Source: a virus | IMG/VR virus record: IMGVR_UViG_3300023504_000004 | Coordinates: 16,857 to 80,856 of that record | DNA: 64,000 bases | Direction: 5' to 3' (one strand) | Shown: positions 13,023 through 41,258 of the stretch, one piece after another | Position numbering within the stretch: position 1 is the first letter of the stretch | Layout: every line of letters begins with the position of its first letter | Notes under the pieces: model-generated | Told to the model about the DNA's origin: nothing | The model's database searches: none | Seen by the model: only the letters and a program-made list of their open reading frames with translations | Made by a program: the position numbers and the translations under genes

Positions 13023-13258
13023 AGATGAAAGCGCATGGATATGTATGGGTATGTATATACAAGGATACAACACCATTTGACGACGGTGGTGATGATAATC
13101 TTCTGGATGTTCAGGTAAAAGAAAGTGTGTTACAGAAATACATGGAAAAGAACGGATTAGGCGATGAGTGGCTGGAAACATACACGGCTGATGACACAAT
13201 GGATTTTTATGAGTTTGCGAAGAACGATATTGTTGATACGCAGCCGGTAGGATGGTAG
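13019..13258 (+). CDS. Hypothetical acidic protein
   Basis: ORF with a 4-nt overlap to the previous gene (ATGA). Confidence 0.5.
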   Translation: MKMKAHGYVWVCIYKDTTPFDDGGDDNLLDVQVKESVLQKYMEKNGLGDEWLETYTADDTMDFYEFAKNDIVDTQPVGW

Positions 13259-13270
13259 GGAGGTAAGGTT

Positions 13271-13465
13271 ATGAAATTTGAAAGGTTAAAACATATTCCC
13301 GGCGGCGAACATGATTGGTATTTTCAAATCGGAGATACTATCGGAGAAAAGGCATTTTGTATTCTGTTAAGGTATTTTACGGGAAGAGGATTTAGATTGA
13401 TAATCAATTTTTATAGAGATGAACTAATTAATTTGTTTGGTTTTCAAAGAGAAATTGGAGTTTGA
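13271..13465 (+). CDS. Hypothetical protein
   Basis: ORF with SD 'gtagggaggtaaggtt'. Confidence 0.5.
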   Translation: MKFERLKHIPGGEHDWYFQIGDTIGEKAFCILLRYFTGRGFRLIINFYRDELINLFGFQREIGV

Positions 13466-16083: not shown

Positions 16084-16371
16084 ATGGAATTAAAAATTGG
16101 AAGAAATATATATGATGTAGATGAAAGGAATTTACTTCTGGACAATGGGGATTGCTTTCAGTTAATTATCCCAAGCTACGGCATAGGATTAGATTCTCAG
16201 TCGTCACCACAATTAAGTAAAAAGCTTGTAAAGGATTTAAAAAAGTCGAATGCAATTTATACAAACGATAATTTGAAAATGGCGGCAGAAGCCAGATATT
16301 ATCCTGGTATGACATATTGGAAGTTTGACATTGAGAAAATGAAGCAGTTGGCCGAAGAAGAGAAAATTTAA
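16084..16371 (+). CDS. Hypothetical protein
   Basis: ORF preceded by 'ttttcggaagggaatttt'. Confidence 0.5.
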   Translation: MELKIGRNIYDVDERNLLLDNGDCFQLIIPSYGIGLDSQSSPQLSKKLVKDLKKSNAIYTNDNLKMAAEARYYPGMTYWKFDIEKMKQLAEEEKI

Positions 16372-17891: not shown

Positions 17892-17914
17892 TTTGATAAA
17901 TATATTTATCTTTG

Positions 17915-17947
17915 AAAAGAGCGAAAAATTTTCGCTCTTTTTCTTTT
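17915..17947 (+). terminator. Rho-independent terminator
   Basis: Perfect inverted repeat 'aaaagagcgaaaaa/tttttcgctctttt' followed by a T-run (ttcttttg), lying between 17891 and the integrase gene. Confidence 0.7.
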
Positions 17948-17986
17948 GCTCAAAATGGAGAATAACTATTGGAAAGGAGAGATCTT

Positions 17987-18742
17987 ATGGCATTGGCAGT
18001 TGTAAAAAATGAAAAACAGGACGTGATCCAGCTTAAGGTTGTAAATGGAACCGGTCGGTTTACAAAAGACGGACGATGGATCCCGAACCCACAGAGCGAA
18101 GAGCGTTGGGTTGATCCGATTAGGGATAAGGCAGATGTGGAGCGCTGCATCGAATACCTGAAGCTCAAAGTCCAGATGGCGCATAAAAAGAACGAGAAGT
18201 TTACATCGAAGAGAAACTTGATGCTGTTCGTTATAGGAATCAACATCGGATTACGAGTGTCTGATTTGTCTGCACTCAAGTGGTCAAACTTTTTCGAGAA
18301 GGACATGGAGACATTCGTGAATGCTCGAAATAAAAAGGAAAAGAAAACCGGAAAGAAAAAACTGGTGATTCCAAACGAGTCGATCCAGAATGTGATTACA
18401 TGGTACTTGAATGAAACCGAAATTCAGCCGGAATACGACGCACCGGTATTTGTGTCTTATAATACCGGGAAAGCAATTGGACGCGATCCGGTGGAGAATA
18501 TGATGAAGGACCTGCAGTATCATCTAAAGCTCAAAGGCAGCTATAACACGCATAGCTTGCGGAAAACCAATGCGTATCAGAAATATATGATGTTGGTCGA
18601 GGCGGGAGATCCATTAGCTCTTGCCAAGATTCAGCACAGTCTTAACCACCGGAATACAAGCGAAACACTTAGATATTTAGGATTGACAAGAGATGATGAT
18701 ATTAAAGACCAGTTCGCATTGGACGACTGGTGGGATATGTAA
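17987..18742 (+). CDS. Small tyrosine recombinase (phage-integrase family, catalytic domain only)
   Basis: Internal ATG of ORF 17969-18742 after 'ggaaaggagagatctt'. Motifs 'GLRVSDLSALKW' (box I Arg), 'HSLRKTNAY' (HxLR) and 'LNHRNTSETLRYLGL' (C-terminal catalytic Tyr region). Confidence 0.75.
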   Translation: MALAVVKNEKQDVIQLKVVNGTGRFTKDGRWIPNPQSEERWVDPIRDKADVERCIEYLKLKVQMAHKKNEKFTSKRNLMLFVIGINIGLRVSDLSALKWSNFFEKDMETFVNARNKKEKKTGKKKLVIPNESIQNVITWYLNETEIQPEYDAPVFVSYNTGKAIGRDPVENMMKDLQYHLKLKGSYNTHSLRKTNAYQKYMMLVEAGDPLALAKIQHSLNHRNTSETLRYLGLTRDDDIKDQFALDDWWDM

Positions 18743-18749
18743 AGGACGG

Positions 18750-18971
18750 TTATTCACCGTCCTTTGGTTTAAAAGAGATGTCTATATTGAGATTTAATGC
18801 GTTACAGATTTCCATAAGAGTTGCCAAACGGGGGCTTCCACTCTGAAAAATTTTGCTTACTGCAGCCGGTGTAGAATCCATTTTGGCGGCAAGCTCTTTT
18901 ATGAGAATATTATTTTCGAACATATATTTACGAATATCCCATAAGACATCGTTTGGAGTATTGTAAACCAT
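18750..18971 (-). CDS. XRE-family helix-turn-helix transcriptional regulator (73 aa)
   Basis: The only convincing minus-strand gene. HTH reads 'ILIKELAAKMDSTPAAVSKIFQSG'. Divergent from the MazF-like gene, with operator-like repeats in the shared intergenic region. Confidence 0.75.
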   Translation of the reverse strand: MVYNTPNDVLWDIRKYMFENNILIKELAAKMDSTPAAVSKIFQSGSPRLATLMEICNALNLNIDISFKPKDGE

Positions 18972-19050
18972 AAGTCCCTCCTTCTATATCCTAAGTATAA
19001 AACAAAAAGGTTGATAAAACAATAAAAAAGTAAATAATAAGAGGAAAAGG

Positions 19051-19079
19051 TTGACAAAAAGATAAAAAGGTTGTATAGT
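19051..19079 (+). promoter_or_regulatory. Sigma-A-type promoter TTGACA-N17-TATAGT for the toxin gene, with 3 'AAAGGTTG' repeats
   Basis: TTGACA at 19051-56, a 17-nt spacer, then TATAGT at 19074-79. Operator-like repeats are 'aaaaggttgataaaac', 'aaaaggttgacaaaaag' and 'aaaaaggttgtatagtt' across 19005-19080. Confidence 0.6.
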
Positions 19080-19113
19080 TAGAGTATCAAAAGAAAGGAG
19101 AGGAAGTGAGAAT

Positions 19114-19473
19114 ATGGAAATGGAGCTTAAAAAATACGATATTGTGATAGCAGACTTTGGCGAAGATGAATTTGCTGGTGAACAGGCCGGTATTCGTCCA
19201 TGTGTTATTATTCAAAACAACACAGGAAATAAACATAGTTGCACAACAATCGTGATGGCGCTTACAACCAAAATTAAAAAGCTCAGACAGCCTACTCACT
19301 TCCTGCTGATTCCCGGAAGCGATAATGGCCTACGACAGGAATCGATGGTTCTTGGAGAATGTATAAGGCAGATTTCAAAAGAGAGAATCATTGGTAAGAT
19401 TGGTTCTGTTGAGAATACAGATGACAGATCAGAAATCAAGCGCGTCTACGACGCGAACTTCGGGGAGGATTAA
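19114..19473 (+). CDS. MazF/PemK-family toxin (mRNA interferase-like)
   Basis: N-terminus 'KKYDIVIADFGEDEFAGEQAGIRPCVIIQNN' matches the MazF/PemK signature (GDIv.vdF.p..G.EQ.G.RP.vvv). SD 'aaaggagaggaagtgagaat'. 119 aa. Confidence 0.7.
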   Translation: MEMELKKYDIVIADFGEDEFAGEQAGIRPCVIIQNNTGNKHSCTTIVMALTTKIKKLRQPTHFLLIPGSDNGLRQESMVLGECIRQISKERIIGKIGSVENTDDRSEIKRVYDANFGED

Positions 19474-19476
19474 AGA

Positions 19477-19746
19477 ATGGAAGGCTATGTTACGATGACG
19501 GCAAAGGAAGCTATGGAGTTAGTTGGAGAGGATTCTATCGTTTTAGTTTCAGTCCAGGATCTTACAAAGAAAAATACCCTCGCCAAGTTTTGTAAAAAGA
19601 AGGGTAGAGATTGCCAGAATTTTATTGACGAGGCAAAGTTAATTGCAAAGATCGAATGTGAACTCAGGGTTTTTAGCGAAAAGCAGCCAGACCCGATAGA
19701 CTTTGAACCAAGAGGATTTCTAAGAACGGTACTCTTAAGAGATTAA
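19477..19746 (+). CDS. Hypothetical protein, possibly a downstream-encoded antitoxin or partner
   Basis: 89-aa ORF starting 3 nt after the toxin stop (translationally coupled). No recognisable motif. Confidence 0.45.
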   Translation: MEGYVTMTAKEAMELVGEDSIVLVSVQDLTKKNTLAKFCKKKGRDCQNFIDEAKLIAKIECELRVFSEKQPDPIDFEPRGFLRTVLLRD

Positions 19747-19786
19747 TTGTCAAAATAATAACACGAACAGGCGTTCGAAAAAACTA

Positions 19787-19815
19787 TTGACAGAACAAGC
19801 GTTCGGGTATATAGT
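19787..19815 (+). promoter_or_regulatory. Sigma-A-type promoter TTGACA-N17-TATAGT upstream of the tRNA cluster
   Basis: TTGACA at 19787-92, 17-nt spacer, TATAGT at 19810-15. Flanked by the direct repeat 'caggcgttcgaaaaa' / 'caagcgttcgggtat'. Confidence 0.55.
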
Positions 19816-20015
19816 AAATATTGCCAGAAGGAAATAGGCAAATAAACCAAAAGAGCCTCTACACTGGGTTGCCGCCCATTGTGTAAAAGGCTCTTAGGTG
19901 CAAAAGCGGTCACCACAACTGCCATTGCGATATCATTATACATATTTTTTTCGAAAATCGCAAGGCATATCGCCAACTATTTCCAATTATTACCAATTTA
20001 ATAGAGAAAATATAT

Positions 20016-20087
20016 TGGGCCATCGCCAAAAGGTAAGGCACAGCACTTTGACTGCTGTATTTGCCGGTTCGAATCCGGCTGACCCAG
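20016..20087 (+). tRNA. tRNA, anticodon loop 'cTTTGac' giving UUG (Gln). One C·A mismatch in the acceptor stem.
   Basis: Hand-folded cloverleaf: acceptor tgggcca/tgaccca, D-arm gcc-aaaaggtaa-ggc, anticodon stem cagca/tgctg, T-arm gccgg-TTCGAAT-ccggc, discriminator g. Confidence 0.55.
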
Positions 20088-20256
20088 TGCGCTCGGACTT
20101 ATGTCCGGGTGTCCTAACGGTCGGCGTTAGGTTACATAAGTAGAGTACAAGCTGCTCTAGGTGTGTTTAGTGCGCGCAAAATACATTCACTTGTACAGGT
20201 TTGCCTTCTAATAGGTGTACCCATCATCGATTCCCGTCAGTCTCGGTGATGGTAAA

Positions 20257-20337
20257 GCTCCAATGGCGGAAAGGAAGACGCAGTGGACTCAAAATCCACC
20301 GATTTATATCGTGTGAGTTCGAATCTCACTTGGAGCA
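20257..20337 (+). tRNA. tRNA-Leu (anticodon CAA), type II with long variable arm
   Basis: Acceptor gctccaa/ttggagc, U8, 3-bp D-stem, anticodon stem gtgga/tccac with loop cTCAAaa, variable arm cgatttatatcgt, T-arm gtgag-TTCGAAT-ctcac, discriminator a. Confidence 0.65.
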
Positions 20338-20377
20338 TTCCTTTTTGGAGAATAAATAAGCGAAAGGAGTGAAGAAA

Positions 20378-20998
20378 ATGGATTACGAGATAGTAAGTGG
20401 TAACCAAAAGATTTATGTCAAATTGGATTCTGGTGGTCGGCCAGTAACATGTGGGAAATTTGAAAGAGGAAGATTTGAGATGAGTAAGGCAAAAAATATT
20501 ATAAAAAACCTTCCAAAACCTCTTCAAAAATTTCACTTCCGAATTGAGGCAATACCGGAAATTCCGAAAAAAGAAGATTCAACCACAAAACCAAAAGTAA
20601 TTGAAAATGTAGGTTATGTCCCGTCGAGCAATGTAACTCAATGGATAGAAAAGTTCGGTCAATGTGGAGATATTTTAAATGCTGCTATTGAAAGGCATTC
20701 CGAACTGGTAAAAAATCTTTCAGATCTGGATAAAGGTCTGACTGATCTTTTACATAGTGTTGAGTTAGAACGACCAAAGGATCTGTTTAAGGCTTGGATT
20801 ATTTACACGGATATCCGGACAAACAGACGGAAGAGAAGAGATGTTAAAGATGAGCTTCGAATTATAAGAGATGTGATTCATGGTGTTGATCCGGCTGTTT
20901 TACAAAGAGAGCATATAAAAAAATCAGTTGATGACTTAGTGAATCGAAAATACATATACAGAATCATCGAAGACGACGAAGAAAAAGAGAATAAGTAG
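20378..20998 (+). CDS. Hypothetical protein
   Basis: ATG 8 nt after 'aaaggag'. The listed GTG at 20369 abuts the SD. 206 aa. Confidence 0.55.
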   Translation: MDYEIVSGNQKIYVKLDSGGRPVTCGKFERGRFEMSKAKNIIKNLPKPLQKFHFRIEAIPEIPKKEDSTTKPKVIENVGYVPSSNVTQWIEKFGQCGDILNAAIERHSELVKNLSDLDKGLTDLLHSVELERPKDLFKAWIIYTDIRTNRRKRRDVKDELRIIRDVIHGVDPAVLQREHIKKSVDDLVNRKYIYRIIEDDEEKENK

Positions 20999-21015
20999 AT
21001 TGGAGGTGATCTGAC

Positions 21016-21675
21016 ATGGAAAACAAAAATCAAGACAAGAAAACGGTGGAATTCACACCGGAACAGATGAAGCTTGCAGAAGAGTATTGTGAACATGATA
21101 TGGCAAAGTTAAAAGCCACATGTTACAAAATTTTCGTAAAGAAAATTGGCGGTATAGACAAATGGGAATATGATGACCTTTATTCGTTAGGGTTAAATGT
21201 TCTGTGCAACAGTATTATAAAGTATAGTGCAGATAAAGGTTGTAAATTCCATACATATTTGTGCGGAAATCTTTCCAGAAGATGCGATTCATACAAGCGA
21301 GATAAAAACAAAGATAAGCGTTCAAATATTCAGGAAGACGAAGACGGAAATAAAGTCTTCTTGAAGAACGAGTCTTTTGACATGGTAAAGCAGAATGGAC
21401 AAGCATTAGAGGAATGCCTGGACTCAGGTAGTAGGATTGATGACAGCCTTGAAGAATGCTTCAATTCTCTTTATATGTCGGAAAATGTGGAAGAATACCT
21501 GCAGAGATTATCACGGAAACAGAGACAGATTGTGCTGTTGCTGGCCAACGGATATGATCGTAAGGCAATTATGATGCAGTTACGGATTAGTGCAAATGAG
21601 TATAAAGAACATATGGCGTGGATCCGTTCAGACTGTAATACAAGATATTTATACAAAAAAAGAAAGGGAGATTAA
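21016..21675 (+). CDS. Putative sigma-70-family-like transcription factor (region-4-type HTH)
   Basis: C-terminal 'LSRKQRQIVLLLANGYDRKAIMMQLRISANEYKEHMAWIRSD' resembles the sigma region 4 / LuxR HTH. SD 'ttggaggtgatctgac'. Confidence 0.4.
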   Translation: MENKNQDKKTVEFTPEQMKLAEEYCEHDMAKLKATCYKIFVKKIGGIDKWEYDDLYSLGLNVLCNSIIKYSADKGCKFHTYLCGNLSRRCDSYKRDKNKDKRSNIQEDEDGNKVFLKNESFDMVKQNGQALEECLDSGSRIDDSLEECFNSLYMSENVEEYLQRLSRKQRQIVLLLANGYDRKAIMMQLRISANEYKEHMAWIRSDCNTRYLYKKRKGD

Positions 21676-21677
21676 TC

Positions 21678-23174
21678 ATGAAGAGAAAAGTTATTGAAGA
21701 AGCTGTGTCGGTAGAGTCTTACTTAAGCGATATCTCAAACGAAACGATTAGCGACAATCAGGACGTACAGAGAAATTTCTGTTCGACAGAAGAATTTGAG
21801 GATGGAATTATTTTAACCGTACTTACTGGTGATTATCTTCCTTCCTTAATTATCGGAGAAATTAATTCCGGAGGAATTACGAGAAAATATCTTATCGACG
21901 GAATGCAGAGAACATCGGCACTGAGAAGATTTAAAAATGGCGCTCATAAAATTAGAAAGAAATGCGAAGACAGCGTTGTTGAATATCAGACGAAGAAGCT
22001 CGATAAAAACGGAGTTGTTGTTCGAGACGAGAATGGAGAGCCGGTTTGGGAGATTGCAACATTCGATGTTAAGGGAAAGGGATACGAAGATCTTCCTGAA
22101 GAATTGAAAAGAGAGTTTGATAAATTCCAGGTAAAGCTTGCAACATTAACAGGTTACAAAACAATGTCGGAAGTCAGCAAAAAGATTAGACAGTTCAATA
22201 TGAATACAGGAATGAATACCAATCAGAAGAGTTTTACTTACCTTGATATGTACGCCAGAAAGGTAAAAGCAATTGGATCTAAAGGCTTTTTCAAGGAATC
22301 AACTGCACTTAAGAGCAAACAGAATGATAAAGGAGCTTGCGAGAGCATGATTCTCAGGTCGATTATGACTGTATTCCACTTAGATTCTTATAAGAAAAAT
22401 GCAAAAGACGTAGCTATTTTTCTCAATACAAATGCAAGTGACGCTGAGTTTAACTTATTTCAGCATCTTGCAGATAGTCTGTGCGATGTAGTCGGCGATG
22501 CATATAAGGAATTGTTCACTCAGAAAAATGTCCCGATTTGGTTTCCAGCATATAATCATTTCTTAGAGTTAGGCATTGAGGAAAAAGAATTCAGAAGATT
22601 TCTTGATGCTTTTAAAGAGAATTTACATACGAGCACGGTTAAATGTGATTACGAACAGAAAGATCTTAACGGAGATATTACTTGGGACAAACTCGATGGA
22701 TTGCGTGGAACAACTGACAATGGTCTTGTAAAGGCAAAAATCGATACGCTCTGCCAGTTAATTGACGATTTTTTTGGAATTAAAGCTGAAGAAAAAACCG
22801 AAATCGAGGCGGTAGAAGAAGAGAATAATAATGAAGTAGTGGAAACAAATGAAGTAGAGATTGATCCGGTATTAAAGTTTGCACAGGACAACGTAAGAGA
22901 AACTATTGAACCAGAAGACATTGCATTATATAAGGATTTTTTGAGCGATTTTGTAAAAGATGATTCACATATTTATGAAGCAGGAGAAGAAACGGTAATT
23001 GCTTTAATGGCATATGCATCTGATATTGAAAAAGATACAGAATTCAGCGAATGGATAGACAGAGAAAATTCCAAAAATAATACATATAGTCCAAGTCACA
23101 AAACAAACTTTACATATTTAAAACGTGATTTTGATGAGTTTTTAGAGAAGAGAAATGGAGGTAAAGCAGCATGA
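21678..23174 (+). CDS. DUF262 / ParB-like nuclease-domain protein (GmrSD N-terminal-domain-like), 498 aa
   Basis: Motif 'YLIDGMQRTSALRRF' resembles the DGQQR signature of DUF262/ParB-like NTPase domains. SD 'aaagggagattaatc'. Confidence 0.45.
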   Translation: MKRKVIEEAVSVESYLSDISNETISDNQDVQRNFCSTEEFEDGIILTVLTGDYLPSLIIGEINSGGITRKYLIDGMQRTSALRRFKNGAHKIRKKCEDSVVEYQTKKLDKNGVVVRDENGEPVWEIATFDVKGKGYEDLPEELKREFDKFQVKLATLTGYKTMSEVSKKIRQFNMNTGMNTNQKSFTYLDMYARKVKAIGSKGFFKESTALKSKQNDKGACESMILRSIMTVFHLDSYKKNAKDVAIFLNTNASDAEFNLFQHLADSLCDVVGDAYKELFTQKNVPIWFPAYNHFLELGIEEKEFRRFLDAFKENLHTSTVKCDYEQKDLNGDITWDKLDGLRGTTDNGLVKAKIDTLCQLIDDFFGIKAEEKTEIEAVEEENNNEVVETNEVEIDPVLKFAQDNVRETIEPEDIALYKDFLSDFVKDDSHIYEAGEETVIALMAYASDIEKDTEFSEWIDRENSKNNTYSPSHKTNFTYLKRDFDEFLEKRNGGKAA

Positions 23175-25292: not shown

Positions 25293-25310
25293 AAGAATGG
25301 GAGAATGACA

Positions 25311-27374
25311 ATGGAAGATTTTATGAAATTCAAAAAGGCATTACAGGATCGTTTTTCTAAAATGCAGAAGGTTGCAGACCATTTATACGAGATGGATGTA
25401 GATAAGGACATTTTATGGAATACATATTTAGACAGTTTTCCTGCAGGAACAAACAAAATGTTCCGCCAGAGAAGAGAATATGATTGTAGCTGTTGCAGAC
25501 AGTTTATTAAAAATATTGGTGCGGTCATCGCAATTAAGGATGGCAGGATTTATACGCTCTGGGAAGAAGTTACTGATGATGCGGTATATAGACCGGTGTG
25601 TGAGGCGCTTAACACATATGTAAAAGCGCAGAAGGTTAAGGATATTTATATCAGTAAGTTTTCTAAAATCGGAACTGATCATAACTTTGAAGACATTGAC
25701 GGGAAAGCACATCGTTGGGATCACTTTTTCTTAGAGCTTCCAAGCAAATATGTGAATTGTTCCTGTGACTCGAATGAAGAAATTAAAGGACAGTACAGAG
25801 ATACGAAAAATGTATTTAAGAGATCACTCGACGAAATTACCATGGATGCAGTTGATACGGTTCTGGAGTTGATCAATTCAAACACTCTTTACAAGGGCGC
25901 AGAGTGGAAAGCTGCCTTAACAGAGTTTAAGAAATACAAAAAAGAATATGCAAATCTTTCTACTGACAACGAAAAGGATCTGTATGTGTGGGAAAAATCA
26001 GCAACAGCAGGTATGGCAGTTGGTAGAATTAGAAATCATTCTATTGGTGTTCTGCTAACTAATATCAGCGAAGATATGGATCTTGATCTCGCAGTTAAAA
26101 AGTATGAGCAGATTGTTGCGCCAGCGAATTACAAACGTCCAAGGGCGATTTTTACAAAGAAAATGCTTGAAAACGCAAAGAAGACAATTACAGAACTTGG
26201 ATACATGGATTCTTTACAGCGTCGCTTTGCAACATTAAGAGATATCACAGTAAACAATGTTTTGTTTTCCAACAAATCTGCAGTTCGAAAAATGGTTGGG
26301 GCAGATGATATTTTTGGAGAGATGGAAAAGGATGTTGCAATTAGCCCAAAGAGATTTTCTAAAGTAGAAGAGATTTCTGCGCAGGATTTTATCGACAAGG
26401 TACTTCCGACCGCAAAAGAAATCGAAGCCTTCGTAGAGAATAAACACGAGAAGAATTTTGTATCCTTGATTGCTCCTGCGAATCCGGATGCTAAGTCAAT
26501 GTTTAAATGGAACAACGGCCTGAGCTGGGCATATACCGGAAATATTACGGATTCAGATATGAAACAGAATGTAAAGGCAGCCGGTGGAAACGTAGACGGC
26601 GTTCTGAGATTTTCTATTCAGTGGAATGATGATCAGAACGATAATAGCGACTTAGATGCTCATTGTATTGAACCGGATAAAAATGAAATTTATTTTGGTC
26701 ATTGTAGAAAACCCGCAGTATCTCGTATGGGTGGCCAGCTTGATGTTGATATTACTCAACCGATGGGACAGAGACCAGGACAGCCAGCAGTAGAAAATAT
26801 TACCTGGACAGATATGTCTAAGATGAAGCCCGGGGTATATCGGTTTTTTGTAAATCAATACCTTGCAAGAGGTAGTAAAGGCTTTAAGGCAGAGATTGAA
26901 TTTAACGGAGAAATCCATGCTTTTGAATACAACAAGCCTGTGTCTGGTAATGTCGTTGTCGCAGAAGTTACGCTTGACAATGGTGGAACTTTCTCCATTA
27001 AAGATATTTTAAATGGATCGTCTTCGGTATCAAGCAGATCAATTTGGGGAGTTCAAACAAATCAGTTTGTTCCGGTATCTGTAATTAGTTACAGCCCAAA
27101 TTATTTTGATGAGCAGAAAGGAATTGGGCATAAACATCTTATGTTTTTCCTTAAAGATTGTATAAATGGTGAAGAACCGAATGGCTGGTATAATGAATTT
27201 CTAAAAAATGATTTAGAAAAACATAAGAGAGTATTTGAGGCTCTTGGAGCAAAATGCCATGTGGCAAGTGTGGATGATCAGCTTTCTGGAATCGGTTTTT
27301 CTATGACAAAGAGAGCGGATCTTGTAGTAAAAGTTAAAGGCGCGACAGAACGTATCATGAAGATTAAATTTTAA
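25311..27374 (+). CDS. Large orphan protein (~687 aa), function unknown
   Basis: ORF with SD 'aatgggagaatgaca'. N-terminal 'YDCSCCRQF' Cys cluster and a Gly/Asn-rich C-terminal half. No P-loop, no glycyl-radical motif (RVxGY), no rSAM motif. Confidence 0.6.
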   Translation: MEDFMKFKKALQDRFSKMQKVADHLYEMDVDKDILWNTYLDSFPAGTNKMFRQRREYDCSCCRQFIKNIGAVIAIKDGRIYTLWEEVTDDAVYRPVCEALNTYVKAQKVKDIYISKFSKIGTDHNFEDIDGKAHRWDHFFLELPSKYVNCSCDSNEEIKGQYRDTKNVFKRSLDEITMDAVDTVLELINSNTLYKGAEWKAALTEFKKYKKEYANLSTDNEKDLYVWEKSATAGMAVGRIRNHSIGVLLTNISEDMDLDLAVKKYEQIVAPANYKRPRAIFTKKMLENAKKTITELGYMDSLQRRFATLRDITVNNVLFSNKSAVRKMVGADDIFGEMEKDVAISPKRFSKVEEISAQDFIDKVLPTAKEIEAFVENKHEKNFVSLIAPANPDAKSMFKWNNGLSWAYTGNITDSDMKQNVKAAGGNVDGVLRFSIQWNDDQNDNSDLDAHCIEPDKNEIYFGHCRKPAVSRMGGQLDVDITQPMGQRPGQPAVENITWTDMSKMKPGVYRFFVNQYLARGSKGFKAEIEFNGEIHAFEYNKPVSGNVVVAEVTLDNGGTFSIKDILNGSSSVSSRSIWGVQTNQFVPVSVISYSPNYFDEQKGIGHKHLMFFLKDCINGEEPNGWYNEFLKNDLEKHKRVFEALGAKCHVASVDDQLSGIGFSMTKRADLVVKVKGATERIMKIKF

Positions 27375-31066: not shown

Positions 31067-31654
31067 ATGGGAGGTTTTGCACCTAAAAAAGTTGAGAAAT
31101 TAACCGATGAGCAAAGACAACTTGTAGAAGATAACCATAACTTAATTTACAAGGTTTTGTACGACAAGCATCTTGATATAGATGAATGGTATGATATTGC
31201 AGCAATTGCATTGTGCAACGCAGCTAAATTGTATGACGCAAACAGAGATATTCAATTTAGTACATATGCGTATATATCAATCTTTAATGGAATTTGTAGG
31301 GAATATGCATTAAGCTTGGCAAATAGAAAAATCCCTAAAGATAAAATTTATTCCTTAGATTACGAATTTGGAGATGGAAATGAAACATACACAATTAAAG
31401 ATTATTATGTGGATGGATATTCATTTGAGAACGATGTTGTAACGAAAGAACGTTTTTTAAGTGGTTTAAAACAGATGCCGAGTCAAAGAGATAGGGAAAT
31501 AATTGTATTGATATCAGAAGGATATACATATGAAAAAGTAGGAAAAATATATAACATTTCGCGAGAACGAGTTAGACAAATTATTCAAAGGTATGCGTGT
31601 TATATAAACCACAAGATAAAAAAGAATAAAGGATATAATAGGAGTGTTGCATGA
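31067..31654 (+). CDS. Sigma-70-family RNA polymerase sigma factor (regions 2 and 4)
   Basis: Region-2-like 'DIAAIALCNAAKLYDANRDIQFSTYAYISIFNGICRE' and region-4 HTH 'YEKVGKIYNISRERVRQIIQR'. SD 'taggggaataaaaatat'. Confidence 0.65.
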   Translation: MGGFAPKKVEKLTDEQRQLVEDNHNLIYKVLYDKHLDIDEWYDIAAIALCNAAKLYDANRDIQFSTYAYISIFNGICREYALSLANRKIPKDKIYSLDYEFGDGNETYTIKDYYVDGYSFENDVVTKERFLSGLKQMPSQRDREIIVLISEGYTYEKVGKIYNISRERVRQIIQRYACYINHKIKKNKGYNRSVA

Positions 31655-37659: not shown

Positions 37660-38520
37660 ATGCCAGTACATGATGATCTTGGTCTTCGCATGAAGACTTT
37701 TTATGAAGAAATTCCAAAAACAAAATTAATGCGGCGCTGCCCTGTTGCGATCAGAATTGACGGAAAAGCTTTTCACACGTTTACGCGCAAATTCCAGAAG
37801 CCATTTGACGAGATCTTGATCGAATCTATGCAGGAAACTATGAAATACCTGTGTGAAAATATCCAGGGATGCGTCTTAGGCTATACCCAGTCTGATGAGA
37901 TCACATTGATCTTGGTTGATTATAAGAAGCTGACATCTGTAGCCTGGTTCGACTATGAAGTTCAGAAGGTTTGTAGTATTGCGGCTTCCATGGCAACTAT
38001 GGCATTTAATAGAAATTTTAGAGATACAATTGATTTAGCTTACGATCAGGAATTTCGTGATTTAGGCTTAAATAAAGAACCAGATAAGAGTCAGGAAGAT
38101 GATTATAATAAAAAGTTTGAAGTATTAGAGAAAAAGTATGACAAGTATTATTCTCAAATCGATAAGGCGATGTTTGACGCCCGTTGCTTTAGCATTCCAA
38201 AAGAAGAAGTAGCAAACCTGATCTATTGGCGGCAGCTTGACGCCACACGCAACTCTATTCAAATGGTTGGACAAGCCAATTTCTCACATAAGGAACTTCA
38301 GAATAAGTCTTGTAACCAGATTCAGGATATGTTAATGGTTCAGAAAAGCATTAATTGGAATAATTTCCCGACTTATCAGAAGAGAGGAAGCTGTTGTATT
38401 AAAGAGGAGAAAATGATTGAAGACCAGATGAGAAGTAGTTGGATTATCGATACAGAAATTCCAATCTTTAAGGGTATTGATAGGGATTATGTTGAGAAAC
38501 GAATTCTTATTGGAGAATGA
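37660..38520 (+). CDS. Thg1-like protein (tRNA-His guanylyltransferase family 3'-5' nucleotidyltransferase)
   Basis: N-terminal 'CPVAIRIDGKAFHTFTRKF' matches the Thg1 signature (RxDGrxFxxFt). Total size matches Thg1/TLP. SD 'aaattggaggattaaaatt'. Confidence 0.6.
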   Translation: MPVHDDLGLRMKTFYEEIPKTKLMRRCPVAIRIDGKAFHTFTRKFQKPFDEILIESMQETMKYLCENIQGCVLGYTQSDEITLILVDYKKLTSVAWFDYEVQKVCSIAASMATMAFNRNFRDTIDLAYDQEFRDLGLNKEPDKSQEDDYNKKFEVLEKKYDKYYSQIDKAMFDARCFSIPKEEVANLIYWRQLDATRNSIQMVGQANFSHKELQNKSCNQIQDMLMVQKSINWNNFPTYQKRGSCCIKEEKMIEDQMRSSWIIDTEIPIFKGIDRDYVEKRILIGE

Positions 38521-38552
38521 TAAAATTACGCTTTCAACAGGAGAATATATAA

Positions 38553-38888
38553 ATGGCAACATATGAAAGACTGTACAATGAGAAGGGTGAGTTGGCAGTA
38601 TTGTATGGAAGTTTTTGGAGTACCGACGATGCTGAATTGCACAATTTAAAAGGTGAAGAAGCGTATCGGCTGGCTCTGGATAAAAGAGTTATAGAGTTCT
38701 GGCAGTCCAACAAAGATTTCTACGACATGTTGGACTTCTTAAAAAGTATTGGATACAACTGGCCAAGTGGAGAACCGGATAGACAAAAATTAGCTTGGAT
38801 TCCCAAAGGGACACCATTTTATATTCATACATATGACGGTGATGAAACAATTGAGACACCAGAAAGTTGCAACATGATTATAGCGTAG
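38553..38888 (+). CDS. Hypothetical protein
   Basis: ORF preceded by 'ctttcaacaggagaatatataa'. Confidence 0.5.
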   Translation: MATYERLYNEKGELAVLYGSFWSTDDAELHNLKGEEAYRLALDKRVIEFWQSNKDFYDMLDFLKSIGYNWPSGEPDRQKLAWIPKGTPFYIHTYDGDETIETPESCNMIIA

Positions 38889-38898
38889 GAGTAGAAAC

Positions 38899-39081
38899 AT
38901 GATATATATAGCATATGCTGTAGCATGGATTGCCACCGCTGTAGCAGTAATTTTCGGAATTAAATTAACAGGGTCAGCATGGTGTTTATGGGCTTTCTTT
39001 TTTCCGGCTGGCATTAGTTTATCTCACAACAAAAAAACTGATAATAACGATGAGGCGGACAGACATGATAAAGATGAATAA
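38899..39081 (+). CDS. Small membrane protein (60 aa)
   Basis: Two hydrophobic helices (IYIAYAVAWIATAVAVIFGI ... WCLWAFFFPAGISL). SD 'gtaggagtagaaac'. Confidence 0.45.
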   Translation: MIYIAYAVAWIATAVAVIFGIKLTGSAWCLWAFFFPAGISLSHNKKTDNNDEADRHDKDE

Positions 39082-39282
39082 AATAAGCATTTCAGGAGGT
39101 GTAACAGCACGAAAGTAATTCAAAACAATTATAAAAAAGAAGAGAATAAAAGAGTAGAGAAAAATACTTTTATTACATATTGTGACCAGTGTAATTCTGA
39201 GCTTGAAATCACAAAAGAAGATACTCATATTGGTTGGCTCGGTGCTCGATTTGTAACCTGTCCATGCTGTGGAGAAGAATCT

Positions 39283-39648
39283 ATGGTTGAAGAGCTGCAA
39301 GGCATTACTCTTACAAAAGATAATATCCAGTTTCCTGCGCATTTTTACAGAACAAAAACAGGGAAAATTGGTGTTAAGGAGGTTACAAATCAGAAAGTCG
39401 TAGATGAAATAAAGCGAGGAATTGAGTGGCTACGGAGTGAAAAGAATGAATATTATTGGTTTACAAAATATGGAGACCTCTTTCTAATTATATTTAAACA
39501 CGATGGAGGCGGAAAATATAACGTGTTGGTTACGAGGGACTGGTATGAAACAGATATCCCATTCGAAGAAGATGATTACAAATGGGATGAGAAAAGGCTT
39601 TCAGAAGATGATGACGACATGGGGTGGGGAGGAGATGATAATTTATGA
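39283..39648 (+). CDS. Hypothetical protein. The ORF is open upstream to 39082 and there encodes a zinc ribbon, but no canonical start codon is present.
   Basis: Listed ORF from the first ATG. The in-frame upstream stretch (39082-39282) encodes ...YCDQCNSELEITKEDTHIGWLGARFVTCPCCGEES... It follows the SD 'tttcaggaggtg' (39088-39099) but contains no ATG, GTG or TTG. Confidence 0.45.
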   Translation: MVEELQGITLTKDNIQFPAHFYRTKTGKIGVKEVTNQKVVDEIKRGIEWLRSEKNEYYWFTKYGDLFLIIFKHDGGGKYNVLVTRDWYETDIPFEEDDYKWDEKRLSEDDDDMGWGGDDNL

Positions 39649-41258
39649 CGGATTTAGAAACTTGGTTCCTTGATTTTGGCGATGATCATATTTTCAGATT
39701 ATACGATCCATTTTCAATTCGCGTAGTGGAAAAAGTGCGAATTAATAATATGATTGAACTTCCAAACAAAGATGTACTAATTGAATATTCGGAAGTTAAT
39801 AGCGAAGAAGATTTTAATGCAGAATGGGGTAAAGCACCTTTATGTTATAAAAACTCAGTGAGATCAAATTGGAGTATCATCCGCATGATAATCAATTTTG
39901 TTCAAATGCAACTGCCTTACCAGCAACCGAGTAAAGGAGAAAAAATGAGTTGGAATCCTGTGCTGAATAAATTTATTGAAATAAAAAATACATATAAAAA
40001 TAAAATTGGCGAACCAACCTATTCTTATAAATCTGGCTATACAGATGAATCAAAAACATGTCTCGAGCGATGGGTTGAAGAGTTAATTGAAAAATTCCCA
40101 GATAAGCAATTCCAGCAGTACGAAGAACTTCTTTCTTGCTTGGAAATGAATCAATGGAATCAGTTTTTGATAATTAGATATGCCAGATATAGTAATGTAT
40201 ATGACGGTGAGGTCGAGTCTTCTGGCGAAGATTTTTGGGACAGATATAGCGGATTTTATAGAGAATGCAGGAGTGTTGTTATTGACGTTGTAAATGATAA
40301 AATTGTATTAGCACCATTTAAGAAATTTTTTAACATCAATGAACTTGAAGAAACTCGTCTGGAGAATGTAGAACGCAGAATTGCTACCGCGACAAATGTT
40401 GAATTTTCTAATAAACTTGATGGCTCAATGCAATCGGCAACGTGGTATGATGGTCGGATTATTATGGCTGGAAGTCAGGCAATTGATCCAAGTAATTCAT
40501 GGAGATTGCAGGAAGGTTATAGAATGCTTGATTTGCGTCCAGGTTATAAGAGAATGCTGACCGAACACCCTGGTCTGACTTTTATTTTTGAATATATTTC
40601 GCTTAAAGACGCTCATGTTGTTAAATATAAAAAAGAGCAAGAGGGACTATATTTGATTGGCGTGAGAAACAATAATGACGGCAGAGAGTTACCGTACCGT
40701 TCTGTTTTAGATGTCGCATATGTTTATAATATTCCAACAACGGAGATTTTTGATAAAACATTAGACCAGGTAATGGCAGAACTTGATGAAAAATCTTCTG
40801 ATGAAGCAGAAGGGTTTGTCATTAACATTGATGGATATAAGGTTAAAGTCAAGTACAATGACTACGTTCATATCCATAAAGCTTTATCTAAATCATCCTC
40901 AATAAATCTAATCATTAAGTCTATTGCAGACGATACGTTCGACGACCTTCTTTCGAAACTTCCAGAAGCTTATCATGACAATGTAAAAAGAGTTGCAAAT
41001 ATTGTTTTTAATTATATTTGTGACACTGAGAATATCATTAGAAAATATTATAACGAAGCGCCAAAGAACGATAAAAAGAAATTTATGATTTGGGTCAATT
41101 CTAATGTTCCCAAAAAATATCGCGGATTCTGTCGATCTTTGTATCTCGGAGATCCAATTAATGTATTAAAAAAACATAATGGTTCTGGCTATTTAAAACT
41201 TAAAGATATGGGTATCGAGGATTATGGAAAACTATTTGTAAACAATGAGAACGAATAA
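39645..41258 (+). CDS. ATP-dependent RNA ligase (Rnl-type nucleotidyltransferase)
   Basis: Motif I 'SNKLDGSMQSA' (KxDG). Motif IV/V 'EGFVINIDGYKVKVKYNDY' (EGxV...KxK). 537 aa. Start overlaps the upstream stop (ATGA). Confidence 0.65.
   Translation: MTDLETWFLDFGDDHIFRLYDPFSIRVVEKVRINNMIELPNKDVLIEYSEVNSEEDFNAEWGKAPLCYKNSVRSNWSIIRMIINFVQMQLPYQQPSKGEKMSWNPVLNKFIEIKNTYKNKIGEPTYSYKSGYTDESKTCLERWVEELIEKFPDKQFQQYEELLSCLEMNQWNQFLIIRYARYSNVYDGEVESSGEDFWDRYSGFYRECRSVVIDVVNDKIVLAPFKKFFNINELEETRLENVERRIATATNVEFSNKLDGSMQSATWYDGRIIMAGSQAIDPSNSWRLQEGYRMLDLRPGYKRMLTEHPGLTFIFEYISLKDAHVVKYKKEQEGLYLIGVRNNNDGRELPYRSVLDVAYVYNIPTTEIFDKTLDQVMAELDEKSSDEAEGFVINIDGYKVKVKYNDYVHIHKALSKSSSINLIIKSIADDTFDDLLSKLPEAYHDNVKRVANIVFNYICDTENIIRKYYNEAPKNDKKKFMIWVNSNVPKKYRGFCRSLYLGDPINVLKKHNGSGYLKLKDMGIEDYGKLFVNNENE

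What the first reader, a model, noticed from the sequence alone, without database searches (positions are those of the whole stretch)
17915..20340. Self-contained moron-like cassette: terminator – small tyrosine recombinase – XRE regulator – MazF toxin – tRNA genes
This is the only place in the window where transcription polarity breaks. A strong terminator at 17915-47 is followed by a minimal 251-aa tyrosine recombinase with no arm-binding N-domain. A 73-aa XRE HTH gene sits on the opposite strand. A MazF/PemK toxin gene sits behind its own consensus promoter. A second consensus promoter then drives two tRNA genes.

The compact arrangement looks like an integrative or dimer-resolution mini-element, or a lysogeny/plasmid-maintenance module, embedded in an otherwise replicative phage region. 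A small recombinase, a regulator and a toxin fit either a phage-plasmid lifestyle (toxin-mediated addiction plus Xer-like resolution) or a mobile island that has hitch-hiked into the phage.
Basis: partly seen in the sequence, partly recalled or inferred. Interest (0 to 1): 0.7.

Follow-up and report, generated by a model that had tools for sequence, protein, structure and literature searches.

The report
Lysis–lysogeny switch of a large prophage
This stretch is not a hitch-hiking mobile cassette but most likely the DNA-damage-sensing control region of a large, uncultured temperate gut phage, and it unusually contains the phage's own MazF-type RNA-cutting toxin with a previously undescribed partner protein.

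Summary
All listed features are real and at the stated coordinates.
- a conserved 89-aa gene translationally coupled to the PemK toxin;
- two Gram-positive LexA (SOS) boxes on the "tRNA promoter";
- a conserved opposing promoter with a hairpin, which predicts a roughly 85-nt antisense RNA;
- a structured spacer between the two tRNA genes.

The components are conserved across relatives down to about 45-50% protein identity. However, the recombinase and the XRE/PemK/partner trio are often 4-7 kb apart, or one occurs without the other. No att-like flanking repeats exist. It is therefore not one mobile cassette.

Relatives sit inside Mb-sized bacterial contigs (Clostridium sp. 12(A), Coprococcus-type, Lacrimispora). 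None was found in 72,556 plasmids or 50,697 deposited phages. This points to a temperate, integrating phage rather than a phage-plasmid.

The gene order is tyrosine-recombinase-fold protein (+), small HTH (−), rightward genes, LexA-controlled promoter, then a sigma factor and a ParB/DUF262 protein. This mirrors the SPβ yopR–yopS–yopT switch, but without detectable sequence homology.

The recombinase has only a catalytic domain and keeps every catalytic residue. It belongs to a family that serves as a second, non-integrase recombinase next to late regulators in Firmicute prophages. Its substrate is unknown.

The parts
17914..17947 (+). Intrinsic-terminator-like hairpin (13-bp arms) with T-run; ends the upstream array of small plus-strand genes
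   Evidence: pattern scan; (I21, 100% complementary arms); present in L001, where it is duplicated.
17987..18742 (+). 251-aa tyrosine recombinase with catalytic domain only (phrog_216 type); all catalytic residues are present
   Evidence: Pfam and PHROG hits. R90, K120, H189, R192, H221 and Y230 are invariant in 16 homologues down to 36% identity. AlphaFold model has no CB domain. Foldseek best hits are XerH, XerA, Tn1549 Int and Cre.
18741..18765 (.). Hairpin (10-bp stem, 5-nt loop) between the convergent recombinase and XRE genes; probably a bidirectional terminator
   Evidence: Read directly from the sequence. Identical in L001 although the neighbouring XRE gene there is different.
18750..18971 (-). 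73-aa XRE/Cro-C1-type HTH regulator; candidate immunity repressor
   Evidence: HTH_3 and HTH_26. Only 16% identical to the protein in the same slot in L001, whose flanking DNA is about 88% identical (recombinase protein 96%).
18972..19113 (.). Divergent control region: three AAAAGGTTG repeats (about 19005, 19045 and 19065) and the rightward promoter TTGACA-17-TATAGT (19051-19079)
   Evidence: D1. This region has no nucleotide similarity to L001.
19114..19473 (+). PemK/MazF-family endoribonuclease, 119 aa
   Evidence: Pfam 2.2e-22; phrog_1936. 46-68% identical across relatives; R28-P29 invariant.
19477..19746 (+). 89-aa partner of PemK (no known family or fold); putative cognate inhibitor/antitoxin
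19764..19815 (+). SOS-type promoter: LexA (Cheo) boxes CGAACAGGCGTTCG (19764-19777) and AGAACAAGCGTTCG (19792-19805) flank and overlap TTGACA-17-TATAGT (19787-19815)
   Evidence: These are the only two matches (up to 1 mismatch) in 64 kb. A perfect box occurs at the homologous spot in L001, L004/5, L008, L009/10 and L011, and in none of 45 other loci.
19851..19895 (.). Conserved-position hairpin; on the minus strand it is followed by a U-run and acts as the terminator of the antisense RNA
   Evidence: Fold −36.1 kcal/mol, z −3.2. A hairpin occupies the same position in all relatives, each with its own stem sequence.
19935..19963 (-). Conserved minus-strand sigma-A-type promoter (TTGCGA-17-TATAAT). 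It predicts an antisense RNA of about 85-90 nt running from about 19928 to about 19840, opposing the SOS-promoter transcript
   Evidence: The block is conserved, with a 17-nt spacer, in all 7 aligned relatives.
20015..20088 (+). tRNA-Gln(UUG)
   Evidence: A tRNA-Gln lies at the same position in L001, L009 and L012.
20089..20256 (+). Structured, conserved spacer RNA between the two tRNA genes
   Evidence: −62.2 kcal/mol, z −4.7. About 94% identical to L001, against 78% for the surrounding region. No Rfam match.
20257..20337 (+). tRNA-Leu(CAA)
20369..23174 (+). Downstream targets of the SOS promoter: a 209-aa protein, a sigma-70-like factor (21016-21675) and a DUF262/GmrSD_N (ParB/Srx-like) protein (21678-23174)
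   Evidence: The sigma + DUF262 pair follows the intergenic region in all relatives and is fused into one protein of about 680-716 aa in L003, L012 and L054.

Best explanation
Coordinates 17.9-20.4 kb, together with the genes up to about 23.2 kb, form the lysis-lysogeny control region of a large temperate phage of Lachnospiraceae/Clostridia. Relatives are about 90-165 kb.

**Shown**
- The gene and site anatomy.
- Its conservation across relatives.
- Residence of relatives in chromosome-sized contigs.

**Inferred mechanism**
1. The small XRE protein, made leftwards, controls the divergent consensus promoter that drives PemK and its 89-aa partner. This regulator and its operators are the specificity-determining, swappable part.
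2. A second rightward promoter is occupied by host LexA at two Cheo boxes.
3. That promoter is further opposed by a constitutive convergent promoter, which makes a short antisense RNA ending at the hairpin.
4. DNA damage removes LexA. Transcription then runs through the tRNA genes and structured RNA into the phage sigma factor and DUF262 operon, which launches the lytic programme.
5. PemK and its partner form a toxin-inhibitor pair built into this switch. They may bias the decision or shut off host mRNA. This would be comparable to host MazF and the phage inhibitors AimX/YosL in phi3T/SPβ.

**The recombinase**
It is a catalytically competent, CB-less 'second' recombinase of the phrog_216 type. 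It is probably not the integrase. My split of probabilities is:
- Cre/Xer-like resolution or cyclisation on a phage-borne site: about 35%.
- Integrase after all: about 25-30%.
- DNA-binding accessory or regulator of the sigma-driven late switch: about 25%.
For: **LexA boxes**
- There are two matches in 64 kb, and both lie on one promoter.
- A perfect box sits at the homologous position in six independent relatives and in none of 45 other loci.
- The boxes stay constant while the XRE protein varies (14-40% identity). This points to a conserved host factor rather than the phage regulator.

**Temperate lifestyle**
- The same module lies at 368-388 kb of a 3.53-Mb scaffold of the isolate Clostridium sp. 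12(A).
- It lies in Coprococcus-type contigs: 2 index blocks with contigs over 1 Mb and 14 with contigs of 0.2-1 Mb.
- It lies in a 525-kb Lacrimispora MAG contig.
- Several IMG/VR members carry numeric genome-type identifiers, which I read as proviruses called in sequenced genomes; this was not verified.

**Not a single cassette**
- Recombinase and trio are separable.

**Conserved downstream architecture**
- The order PemK, partner, LexA promoter, hairpin, sigma, DUF262 holds in 35 of 110 IMG/VR loci that carry the hairpin cap. It holds in 0 of 116 control loci.

**SPβ parallel**
- SPβ has yopR (+, tyrosine-recombinase fold), then yopS (−, 74-aa HTH), then yopT (+).
- YopT is the antirepressor Sar, and it is controlled by a LexA SOS box (bioRxiv 10.1101/2025.11.27.690993).
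- The SPβ sro operon also combines Xre, integrase-like and ParB_N_Srx domains (PMC8612738).
- MazF takes part in the phi3T lysis-lysogeny decision (PMC10769878 abstract).

**Recombinase**
- The catalytic residues are invariant.
- The same family (shared V[D/E]PIR motif) is a second recombinase beside ArpU- or sigma-like genes in two or three small temperate phages. Javan197 and Bacillus phage 11143 each have a separate full-length integrase in their lysogeny module. phiCD146 has a separate resolvase-domain (serine recombinase) gene.
Against: - No experiment supports any step. LexA binding is inferred from the Bacillus consensus, not from the unknown host's own motif.
- Prophage ends were never reached, because only ±10 kb was available per locus. 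The 3.5-Mb scaffold is from an isolate genome.
- The recombinase keeps a full active site, unlike SPβ MrpR. It shows no significant profile similarity to YopR, YopP or YomM (hhalign probability 0.3-9%).
- No recombination site or repeated operator was found for it.
- The partner has no resemblance to known antitoxins.
- The window's own hairpin lacks the cap sequence seen in most relatives.
- No word avoidance on the mRNA strand hints at PemK specificity.
Confidence: 0.62

Rival explanations
1. Phage-plasmid maintenance module. PemK and its partner act as an addiction system, and the small recombinase acts as a Cre/Xer-like multimer resolvase for an extrachromosomal prophage.
For: - The pairing of toxin, inhibitor and recombinase resembles P1 (phd-doc plus Cre/lox).
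- Large Firmicute phages with several Xer-like recombinases have been proposed to have plasmid stages (Tyroviruses, PMC9703825; Bacillus phage B83, PMC6669507).
- The DnaE of this phage is nearest to that of Brevibacillus phage Sundance (second-best hit, 34% identity). The Tyrovirus paper names Sundance among the closest neighbours of that group.
- The recombinase is internal to the element and so is not next to an attP.
Against: - The partner protein has no match in 72,556 PLSDB plasmids.
- Relatives lie inside contigs of 0.2-3.5 Mb.
- No ParA/ParM/Rep-type Pfam hit was found among the window's larger ORFs.
- No lox/dif-like site was found next to the recombinase gene in relatives.
Confidence: 0.12
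2. Self-contained mobile island or moron cassette that inserted into a replicative phage region.
For: - Strand polarity breaks locally.
- A strong terminator lies upstream, and the region has its own consensus promoters.
- GC is slightly higher than in the flanks.
- A 27-nt imperfect direct repeat brackets the region (D3).
Against: - All components are present in every relative examined, at the same place in the genome backbone, but not contiguous with each other.
- No relative shows an empty site.
- The bracketing repeat is a common motif found in ribosome-binding-site contexts.
- The downstream sigma/DUF262 genes are part of the same conserved unit.
Confidence: 0.04
3. XRE, PemK and the 89-aa protein form a three-component toxin-antitoxin or abortive-infection system. 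The prophage carries it to protect the lysogen from other phages (a defence moron). It would be functionally independent of the lysis-lysogeny decision.
For: - The trio of regulator, toxin and small partner recalls tripartite TA systems (omega-epsilon-zeta; paaR-paaA-parE). This comparison rests on my own knowledge.
- Some relatives carry an additional RelB-PemK pair nearby.
- PHROG files phage MazF-like proteins under 'moron / host takeover'.
Against: - PADLOC has no hit for any of the three proteins.
- The trio has a fixed position, immediately upstream of the LexA-controlled promoter and sigma operon, in at least 35 IMG/VR relatives. This argues for integration into the switch rather than a free-floating moron.
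- This rival is not exclusive of the main explanation.
Confidence: 0.25
4. The phage is strictly lytic. The region would be an early-to-middle transcription switch, the CGAAC-N4-GTTCG palindromes would be operators of a phage protein, and PemK would serve host shut-off.
For: - Apart from the XRE gene, every credible gene in the window lies on one strand, and the window holds a full replication set (DnaE, RecJ, RecD2, primase-like) and two sigma factors.
- No canonical integrase was seen in the window's 64 kb.
Against: - Chromosomal copies exist in isolates and MAGs.
- The palindrome equals the established Gram-positive LexA consensus. It is invariant, while the only nearby phage DNA-binding protein varies strongly.
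Confidence: 0.1

Closest known systems
SPβ/phi3T lysis-lysogeny region: sro operon with SroF/MrpR(YopR), YopS, and the LexA-controlled antirepressor Sar(YopT)
   Same: - Same order and strands: tyrosine-recombinase-fold protein (+), terminator, 73-74-aa HTH (−), rightward genes, and LexA SOS-box control of the rightward induction step.
- The neighbourhood also combines Xre, integrase-like and ParB/Srx-like domains.
- MazF is involved in the decision (PMC10769878).
- Both are large temperate Firmicute phages with DnaE-type polymerase and their own transcription factors.
   Different: - No detectable sequence relationship to YopR, YopP or YomM.
- The window protein lacks the CB domain and keeps all catalytic residues. 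MrpR has CB and CAT domains and has lost 4 of 7 catalytic residues (PMC10516654).
- No arbitrium genes were seen.
- MazF is phage-encoded here and host-encoded there.
- The LexA promoter here leads to tRNAs and a sigma factor rather than to a small antirepressor.
- In several relatives the recombinase is kilobases away from the HTH gene.
Small 'second' tyrosine recombinases of Firmicute temperate phages (PHROG 216; e.g. Javan197_0018, phiCD146 gp51, Bacillus phage 11143 ADA84960)
   Same: - 30-35% identity.
- Same architecture: a V(D/E)PIR motif runs directly into the catalytic domain, and R-K-HxxR-H-Y is intact.
- They sit at the early/late boundary next to an ArpU- or sigma-like regulator.
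- They coexist with a separate integrase or serine recombinase.
   Different: - The window protein has an extra N-terminal segment of about 40-60 aa.
- It lies 2.3 kb upstream of the sigma gene, with the XRE/PemK module in between.
- No function has been demonstrated for any member that I could find.
LexA-controlled prophage switches (SPβ/phi3T Sar is documented; GIL01, coliphage 186 Tum and CTXphi are from my own knowledge)
   Same: Host LexA boxes sit directly on a phage promoter that starts the lytic programme, instead of RecA-mediated cleavage of a CI-type repressor.
   Different: - There are two boxes plus an opposing promoter and antisense RNA.
- The controlled operon begins with tRNA genes and encodes a sigma factor.
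MazEF/PemIK type II toxin-antitoxin systems
   Same: The PemK domain is present with the conserved Arg-Pro motif, and a small, translationally coupled partner gene is present.
   Different: - The partner is downstream, not upstream.
- It has no AbrB/MazE, RHH or Phd-like fold.
- The regulator is a separate, divergently transcribed XRE protein.

Membership tests
Tyrosine recombinase superfamily (PF00589) | Catalytic-domain fold | tested here: met
   Pfam 3.6e-13. Profile hits to XerA and XerH. Foldseek XerH 5e-7, also Cre and lambda Int.
Tyrosine recombinase superfamily (PF00589) | Catalytic residues R, K, H-x-x-R, H/W and Y | tested here: met
   R90, K120, H189, R192, H221 and Y230 are invariant in 16 homologues and are kept in distant phage relatives.
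Canonical phage integrase (lambda-Int type) | N-terminal arm-binding domain and core-binding (SAM-like) domain | tested here: not met
   The catalytic domain starts at about residue 48. Residues 1-45 have low confidence and contain only a beta-hairpin.
Canonical phage integrase (lambda-Int type) | Gene at the prophage edge, next to attP/attL | tested here: not met
   In chromosomal copies there are phage-type genes on both sides for at least 7-10 kb. The prophage ends themselves were not reached.
SroF/MrpR-type repressor (SPβ) | Sequence or profile similarity to YopR | tested here: not met
   hhalign probability 0.3%, E 0.23.
SroF/MrpR-type repressor (SPβ) | CB + CAT domains with a degenerate active site | tested here: not met
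   No CB domain and an intact active site. Compare PMC10516654, Table 3.
SroF/MrpR-type repressor (SPβ) | Genomic position: upstream of an opposite-strand small HTH gene and a LexA-controlled rightward unit | tested here: met
   This holds in the window, L001, L011 and L056, but the genes are separated in L003, L004 and L008.
SroF/MrpR-type repressor (SPβ) | Repeated operator elements across the genome (SPBRE-like) | tested here: inconclusive
   The repeat scan of the 64 kb found only ribosome-binding-site-proximal motifs (printout). No motif search tailored to intergenic regions was possible.
MazF/PemK toxin of a type II TA system | PemK domain with conserved catalytic Arg | tested here: met
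   PF02452 2.2e-22. R28-P29 invariant.
MazF/PemK toxin of a type II TA system | Adjacent MazE/PemI-type antitoxin (AbrB/RHH fold, upstream) | tested here: not met
   The upstream neighbour is a divergent XRE gene. The downstream partner has no Pfam, PHROG or NCBIfam hit and no antitoxin-like fold.
MazF/PemK toxin of a type II TA system | Toxicity neutralised by the partner | not testable with these tools
   Needs co-expression experiments.
LexA (Cheo-box) regulated promoter | CGAAC-N4-GTTCG overlapping the promoter and conserved in relatives | tested here: met
LexA (Cheo-box) regulated promoter | LexA binding and SOS induction | not testable with these tools
   Needs EMSA or a reporter assay.
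Phage-plasmid (P1-like) maintenance module | Partition and replication-initiator genes; occurrence as plasmids | tested here: not met
   No such Pfam hits among the 37 larger ORFs scanned. No PLSDB match to the partner. Only 64 kb of about 105 kb was seen.
Integrative mobile island | Flanking direct repeats and empty sites in relatives | tested here: not met
   (the repeat is a common motif). (no empty site; the parts are dispersed).

The most novel reading that the evidence does not exclude
An uncharacterised, widespread family of large temperate gut phages has built its own MazF-type endoribonuclease into an SOS/LexA-gated lysis-lysogeny switch. The toxin comes with a new-fold protein inhibitor and a conserved SD/anti-SD hairpin RNA that resembles the 3' end of 16S rRNA. 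This would be a phage-encoded counterpart of the host-MazF control recently found for arbitrium phages. In the same reading, the catalytic-domain-only tyrosine recombinase is an active enzyme with a non-integrative role at the switch to sigma-factor-driven late transcription.
Probability: 0.2. Interest if true: 0.75.

Novelty: new variant of a known kind. Interest (0 to 1): 0.5.

Why it matters
**Testable model.** The region gives a model for how a common but uncultured group of large Lachnospiraceae prophages senses DNA damage. The proposed chain is LexA boxes, then an antisense-guarded promoter, then a phage sigma factor.

**Link to SPβ biology.** It extends two recent SPβ findings beyond Bacillus:
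- tyrosine-recombinase-fold proteins sit at the heart of the switch;
- MazF is a player in the lysis-lysogeny decision.

**Three uncharacterised components worth testing:**
- the 89-aa PemK partner family (at least 328 members, no known fold);
- the small CB-less but catalytically intact recombinases, which recur beside late regulators in Firmicute phages;
- a conserved hairpin element.

**Annotation caveat.** A gene set of integrase, XRE and toxin should not be read as a mobile cassette or a plasmid-addiction module without comparative context.

Tried and rejected
1. **att-like repeats.** Direct and inverted repeat scans of 16.5-21.5 kb and of the whole window found only the 22/27 repeat built on the common TGGAGAATAA motif, plus terminator palindromes.
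2. **Conserved site next to the recombinase gene.** The flanks differ in every relative: some have their own sigma-A promoter and others are embedded in operons.
3. **The hairpin cap as the recombinase's site.** Rejected. The same 16-mer occurs in lineages with the 251-aa CB-less enzyme and in lineages with an unrelated 337-aa XerC/D-like enzyme.
4. **Raw abundance of the 16-mer AGGTGTTGGCGCACCT in IMG/VR.** There were 110 hits, but a permuted-loop control gave 116, so the count is at chance level. Only the context is non-random. Stem extension occurs in 38% of real flanks against 8% of control flanks. PemK neighbours occur in 35/110 real loci against 0/116 control loci.
5. **Known RNA families.** Rfam gave nothing except tRNAs, at gathering threshold or at E ≤ 5.
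6. **RNAalifold on 10 hairpins.** It recovers only the 6-bp apical stem, because the outer stems are in different registers.
7. **PemK specificity from word avoidance.** UACAU occurs 110 times against about 100 expected, and no pentamer or hexamer stands out.
8. **Antitoxin-like fold for the partner.** None found.
9. **Defence-system models (PADLOC).** No hit for the cassette genes.
10. **Deposited relatives.** No nucleotide match in the phage collection beyond tRNAs. No protein match to the partner in phages or plasmids.
11. **Literature on the small recombinases and on the 16-mer.** No functional study was found.
12. **afdb50 fold library.** It was unavailable.

Full report
**1.

The window is a large phage region. 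Apart from the XRE gene, every credible gene is on the plus strand. It encodes DnaE-type polymerase, RecJ, RecD2, an RNA ligase and two sigma factors.

- Terminator-like hairpin at 17914-17942 with a T-run.
- A 251-aa tyrosine recombinase at 17987-18742 (Pfam 3.6e-13; phrog_216 5e-35).
- A 73-aa XRE protein at 18750-18971 on the minus strand.
- PemK/MazF at 19114-19473 behind TTGACA-17-TATAGT.
- A second 11/12 promoter at 19787-19815.
- tRNA-Gln(UUG) and tRNA-Leu(CAA).

The other long minus-strand ORFs overlap plus-strand genes and have no family support.

The AlphaFold model (pLDDT 84.6) shows that the recombinase lacks not only an arm-binding domain but also the core-binding domain. All catalytic residues (R90, K120, H189, R192, H221, Y230) are invariant in 16 homologues down to 36% identity.

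**2.

(a) An 89-aa ORF (19477-19746) starts 3 nt after PemK.
- In relatives it always follows PemK, often with overlapping stop and start codons.
- A profile search found at least 328 homologues, none with a Pfam domain.

(b) The 'tRNA promoter' is flanked and overlapped by CGAACAGGCGTTCG (19764-19777) and AGAACAAGCGTTCG (19792-19805).
- CGAAC-N4-GTTCG is the Gram-positive LexA (Cheo) box.
- These are the only two matches with up to 1 mismatch in 64 kb.
- A perfect box lies at the homologous position in L001, L004/5, L008, L009/10 and L011, and in none of 45 other loci.

(c) A minus-strand sigma-A-type promoter (TTGCGA-17-TATAAT, 19963-19935) lies 120-150 nt further on.
- It is conserved, with a 17-nt spacer, in all seven aligned relatives.
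- It points at a hairpin (19851-19895) that is followed, on the minus strand, by a U-run.
- The predicted product is an antisense RNA of about 85-90 nt (−36 kcal/mol, z −3.2). This RNA opposes the SOS-promoter transcript.

(d) The 168-nt spacer between the two tRNAs is strongly structured (z −4.7). It is more conserved against L001 than the surrounding region.

**3. It is not one cassette**

- The only close IMG/VR relative (104.9 kb) carries the region syntenically.
- In relatives with 45-50% identical recombinases, the recombinase sits in the same array of small co-directional genes. The XRE(−)/PemK/partner trio, however, lies 4-7 kb further downstream, with unrelated genes in between (L003, L004/5, L008).
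- L009 has the recombinase followed directly by the LexA-promoter/tRNA region, with no XRE or PemK.
- L011 and L056/57 have the two adjacent.
- In L056/57 a 337-aa XerC/D-like recombinase with a CB domain occupies exactly the slot of the 251-aa type. In the L059 group a recombinase of that type lies about 4 kb upstream of PemK.
- Downstream, a sigma-like gene and a DUF262/GmrSD_N gene always follow. In L003, L012 and L054 they are fused into one protein.
- The sole bracketing repeat (17956-17982 / 20346-20372, 22 of 27) is built on TGGAGAATAA. This motif occurs 33 times against 12 expected, in plus-strand ribosome-binding-site contexts.

**4. Lifestyle**

- The partner protein's family occurs on very long contigs.
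- The whole module lies at 368-388 kb of a 3.53-Mb scaffold of the isolate Clostridium sp. 12(A). An IS66 element has truncated the recombinase there.
- In the Coprococcus-type lineage, the index shows 2 blocks with contigs over 1 Mb and 14 with contigs of 0.2-1 Mb.
- A Lacrimispora MAG contig of 525 kb holds a relative of the whole region: recombinase 46%, PemK 56%, partner 42%, and the 689-aa phrog_1735 protein 71%.
- In all of these, phage-type genes flank the recombinase on both sides, so it is internal to the prophage.
- The partner has no match in 50,697 deposited phages or 72,556 plasmids.
- No partition or Rep gene was found among 37 scanned ORFs.
- Together with the SOS boxes, this favours an integrating temperate phage over a phage-plasmid or a lytic phage.

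**5. What it resembles**

*SPβ.* The SPβ region reads yopP (integrase-like), yopQ, yopR (+), stem-loop, palindrome, yopS (74-aa HTH, −), yopT (+).
- YopR/SroF/MrpR is the master repressor. It has a tyrosine-recombinase fold but has lost recombinase function (PMC10516654).
- YopT is the antirepressor Sar, and it is controlled by a LexA SOS box (bioRxiv 10.1101/2025.11.27.690993).
- The sro operon also holds Xre and ParB_N_Srx proteins (PMC8612738).
- Host MazF, inhibited by phage AimX/YosL, takes part in the decision (PMC10769878 abstract).
- The window shows the same order and strands, LexA control, a ParB/Srx-like DUF262 protein and a MazF.
- However, profile comparison with YopR, YopP and YomM is not significant. 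The window protein also has an intact active site and no CB domain. It works in an SPβ-like setting but is not a member of the SroF family.

*Small second recombinases.* By sequence, the recombinase belongs with small recombinases of Firmicute temperate phages. These share about 30-35% identity and a V(D/E)PIR motif running straight into an intact catalytic domain.
- They sit at the early/late boundary beside ArpU- or sigma-like regulators.
- Javan197 and Bacillus phage 11143 each have a separate full-length integrase in their lysogeny module. phiCD146 has a separate resolvase-domain gene.
- I found no functional study of them. Published interpretations of similar genes are speculative.

**6. 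Immunity-like behaviour of the XRE gene**

- Between the window and L001 the flanking DNA is about 88% identical and the recombinase protein 96% identical.
- The XRE gene and the divergent promoter/operator region have no nucleotide similarity, and the two proteins share 16% identity.
- Across the family the XRE proteins are 14-40% identical, PemK is 46-68% identical, and the LexA boxes are invariant.
- This fits a specificity-determining regulator with co-varying operators. It also argues that the invariant palindromes are read by a conserved host protein.

**7. Proposed mechanism (inferred)**

1. XRE controls the divergent consensus promoter of PemK and its partner.
2. LexA occupies the second promoter, and the antisense promoter and RNA damp leakage from it.
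3. SOS induction releases transcription through the tRNAs and structured RNA into the sigma factor and DUF262 operon.
4. PemK and its partner form a toxin-inhibitor pair embedded in the switch.
5. The recombinase is an active enzyme whose substrate is unknown. My estimate is resolution/cyclisation 35%, integrase 25-30%, regulatory accessory 25%.

**8. The hairpin cap (unexplained)**

- In most relatives the hairpin is capped by AGGTG-TTGGCG-CACCT.
- The 16-mer is not over-represented in IMG/VR: 110 hits against 116 for a permuted-loop control.
- Its context, however, is non-random. Stems extend in 38% of distinct flanks against 8% in the control.
- 35 of the 110 loci carry PemK and its partner beside the cap, and 26-29 of the 110 also carry the sigma and DUF262 genes. 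None of the 116 control loci carries any of these.
- On the gene-sense strand, 7 of 9 distinct variants read AUCA(Y)-AGGUG-N6-CACCUCC, with only the 6-nt loop flipped between lineages.
- AGGUG/CACCUCC is an SD/anti-SD pairing and resembles the 16S rRNA 3' end. The opposite strand reads GGAGGUG-N11-AUG, but the ORFs that follow are short and not conserved.
- The window's own copy has a different cap.
- There is no Rfam family and no literature hit.

**9. Verdict**

It is a lysogeny module, but not a mobile cassette or a plasmid module.
- Novelty: a new variant of known kinds, namely a LexA-gated prophage switch, a phage MazF with a novel partner, and a second small recombinase.
- Interest is moderate, at 0.5.

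Noticed in passing
L012 about 13225-13285; L003 about 16262-16315; L059-L168 (IMG/VR loci); window 19851-19895 (variant): Hairpin capped by AGGTG-TTGGCG-CACCT, lying between the PemK-partner operon and the sigma/DUF262 operon. The sense strand reads AUCA(Y)-AGGUG-N6-CACCUCC, which is SD/anti-SD-like and resembles the 16S 3' end. Only the loop is flipped between lineages. The raw count of the 16-mer in IMG/VR equals that of a permuted control, but its hairpin context and PemK neighbourhood are highly non-random. The same cap also tops terminator-like hairpins in unrelated small phage contigs (e.g. L065, L084, L092).
   Followed up: partly
window 20089-20256: The 168-nt spacer between tRNA-Gln and tRNA-Leu folds very stably (−62 kcal/mol, z −4.7). 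It is about 94% identical to L001 although the surrounding region is 78% identical. There is no Rfam or ARAGORN hit. It may be a co-transcribed structured RNA or a degenerate tRNA-like element.
   Followed up: partly
window 37660-42215: RNA-repair gene set: a Thg1-like tRNA-His guanylyltransferase (37660-38520), a T4 Rnl1-like RNA ligase (39645-41258) and a kinase + HD (PNK-like) protein (41286-42215). These enzymes could heal the 5'-OH / cyclic-phosphate ends of the kind MazF makes, or counter host anticodon nucleases. The phage also carries four tRNA genes.
   Followed up: no
window 18750-19113 vs L001 10757-11130: The XRE gene and the divergent promoter/operator region are replaced by unrelated sequence in a phage whose flanking DNA is about 88% identical (XRE proteins 16% identical). 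This pattern resembles heteroimmunity.
   Followed up: partly
window 21016-23174; L003 17178-19328; L012 13619-15667; L054 10772-12814: A sigma-70-like factor and a DUF262/GmrSD_N (ParB/Srx-like) protein are adjacent in the window and fused into one protein of about 680-716 aa in several relatives. The window's DUF262 protein hits the PADLOC model NsnA (1.7e-10).
   Followed up: partly
L051 3998-4564; L052 3887-4531; L053 3995-4537: Small (180-215 aa) catalytically intact tyrosine recombinases sit immediately next to ArpU- or sigma-like late regulators and just before the packaging genes in temperate Streptococcus, Clostridioides and Bacillus phages. Javan197 and Bacillus phage 11143 have a separate integrase; phiCD146 has a separate resolvase-domain gene. 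In Bacillus phage 11143 the ArpU and recombinase genes overlap by 4 nt. I found no published function.
   Followed up: partly
window 25305-27374: A 689-aa protein of unknown function (phrog_1735, 1e-264). It is about 55-59% identical to proteins of large Bacillus myophages (TsarBomba, BCP78 and others), of Clostridioides phage pCD1602_4, and of hundreds of Salmonella, Klebsiella and other phages.
   Followed up: no
window 3738, 11217, 39077, 63547; and 8929, 30088, 43935: Two families of 24-32-nt repeats lie just upstream of start codons: AATAAAA-N7-TTTCAGGAGGT and TAAAA-N6-GTTTCAAAAGGAGAAA. TGGAGAATAA is also enriched on the plus strand (33 against 12 expected). These may be phage-specific translation or transcription signals.
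   Followed up: partly
L004 12431-13075; L005 14143-15691; L054 4332-6734; L057 6883-8061: Relatives carry an extra RelB-PemK pair (L004/5), IS605-type insertions (Y1 transposase + TnpB in L005; TnpB alone in L057), and an IS66 insertion that truncates the recombinase gene to 194 aa in the Clostridium sp. 12(A) prophage.
   Followed up: no
window 31067-31654: A second sigma-70-like factor (regions 2 and 4) lies 10 kb downstream of the first, suggesting a multi-step transcription cascade.
   Followed up: no
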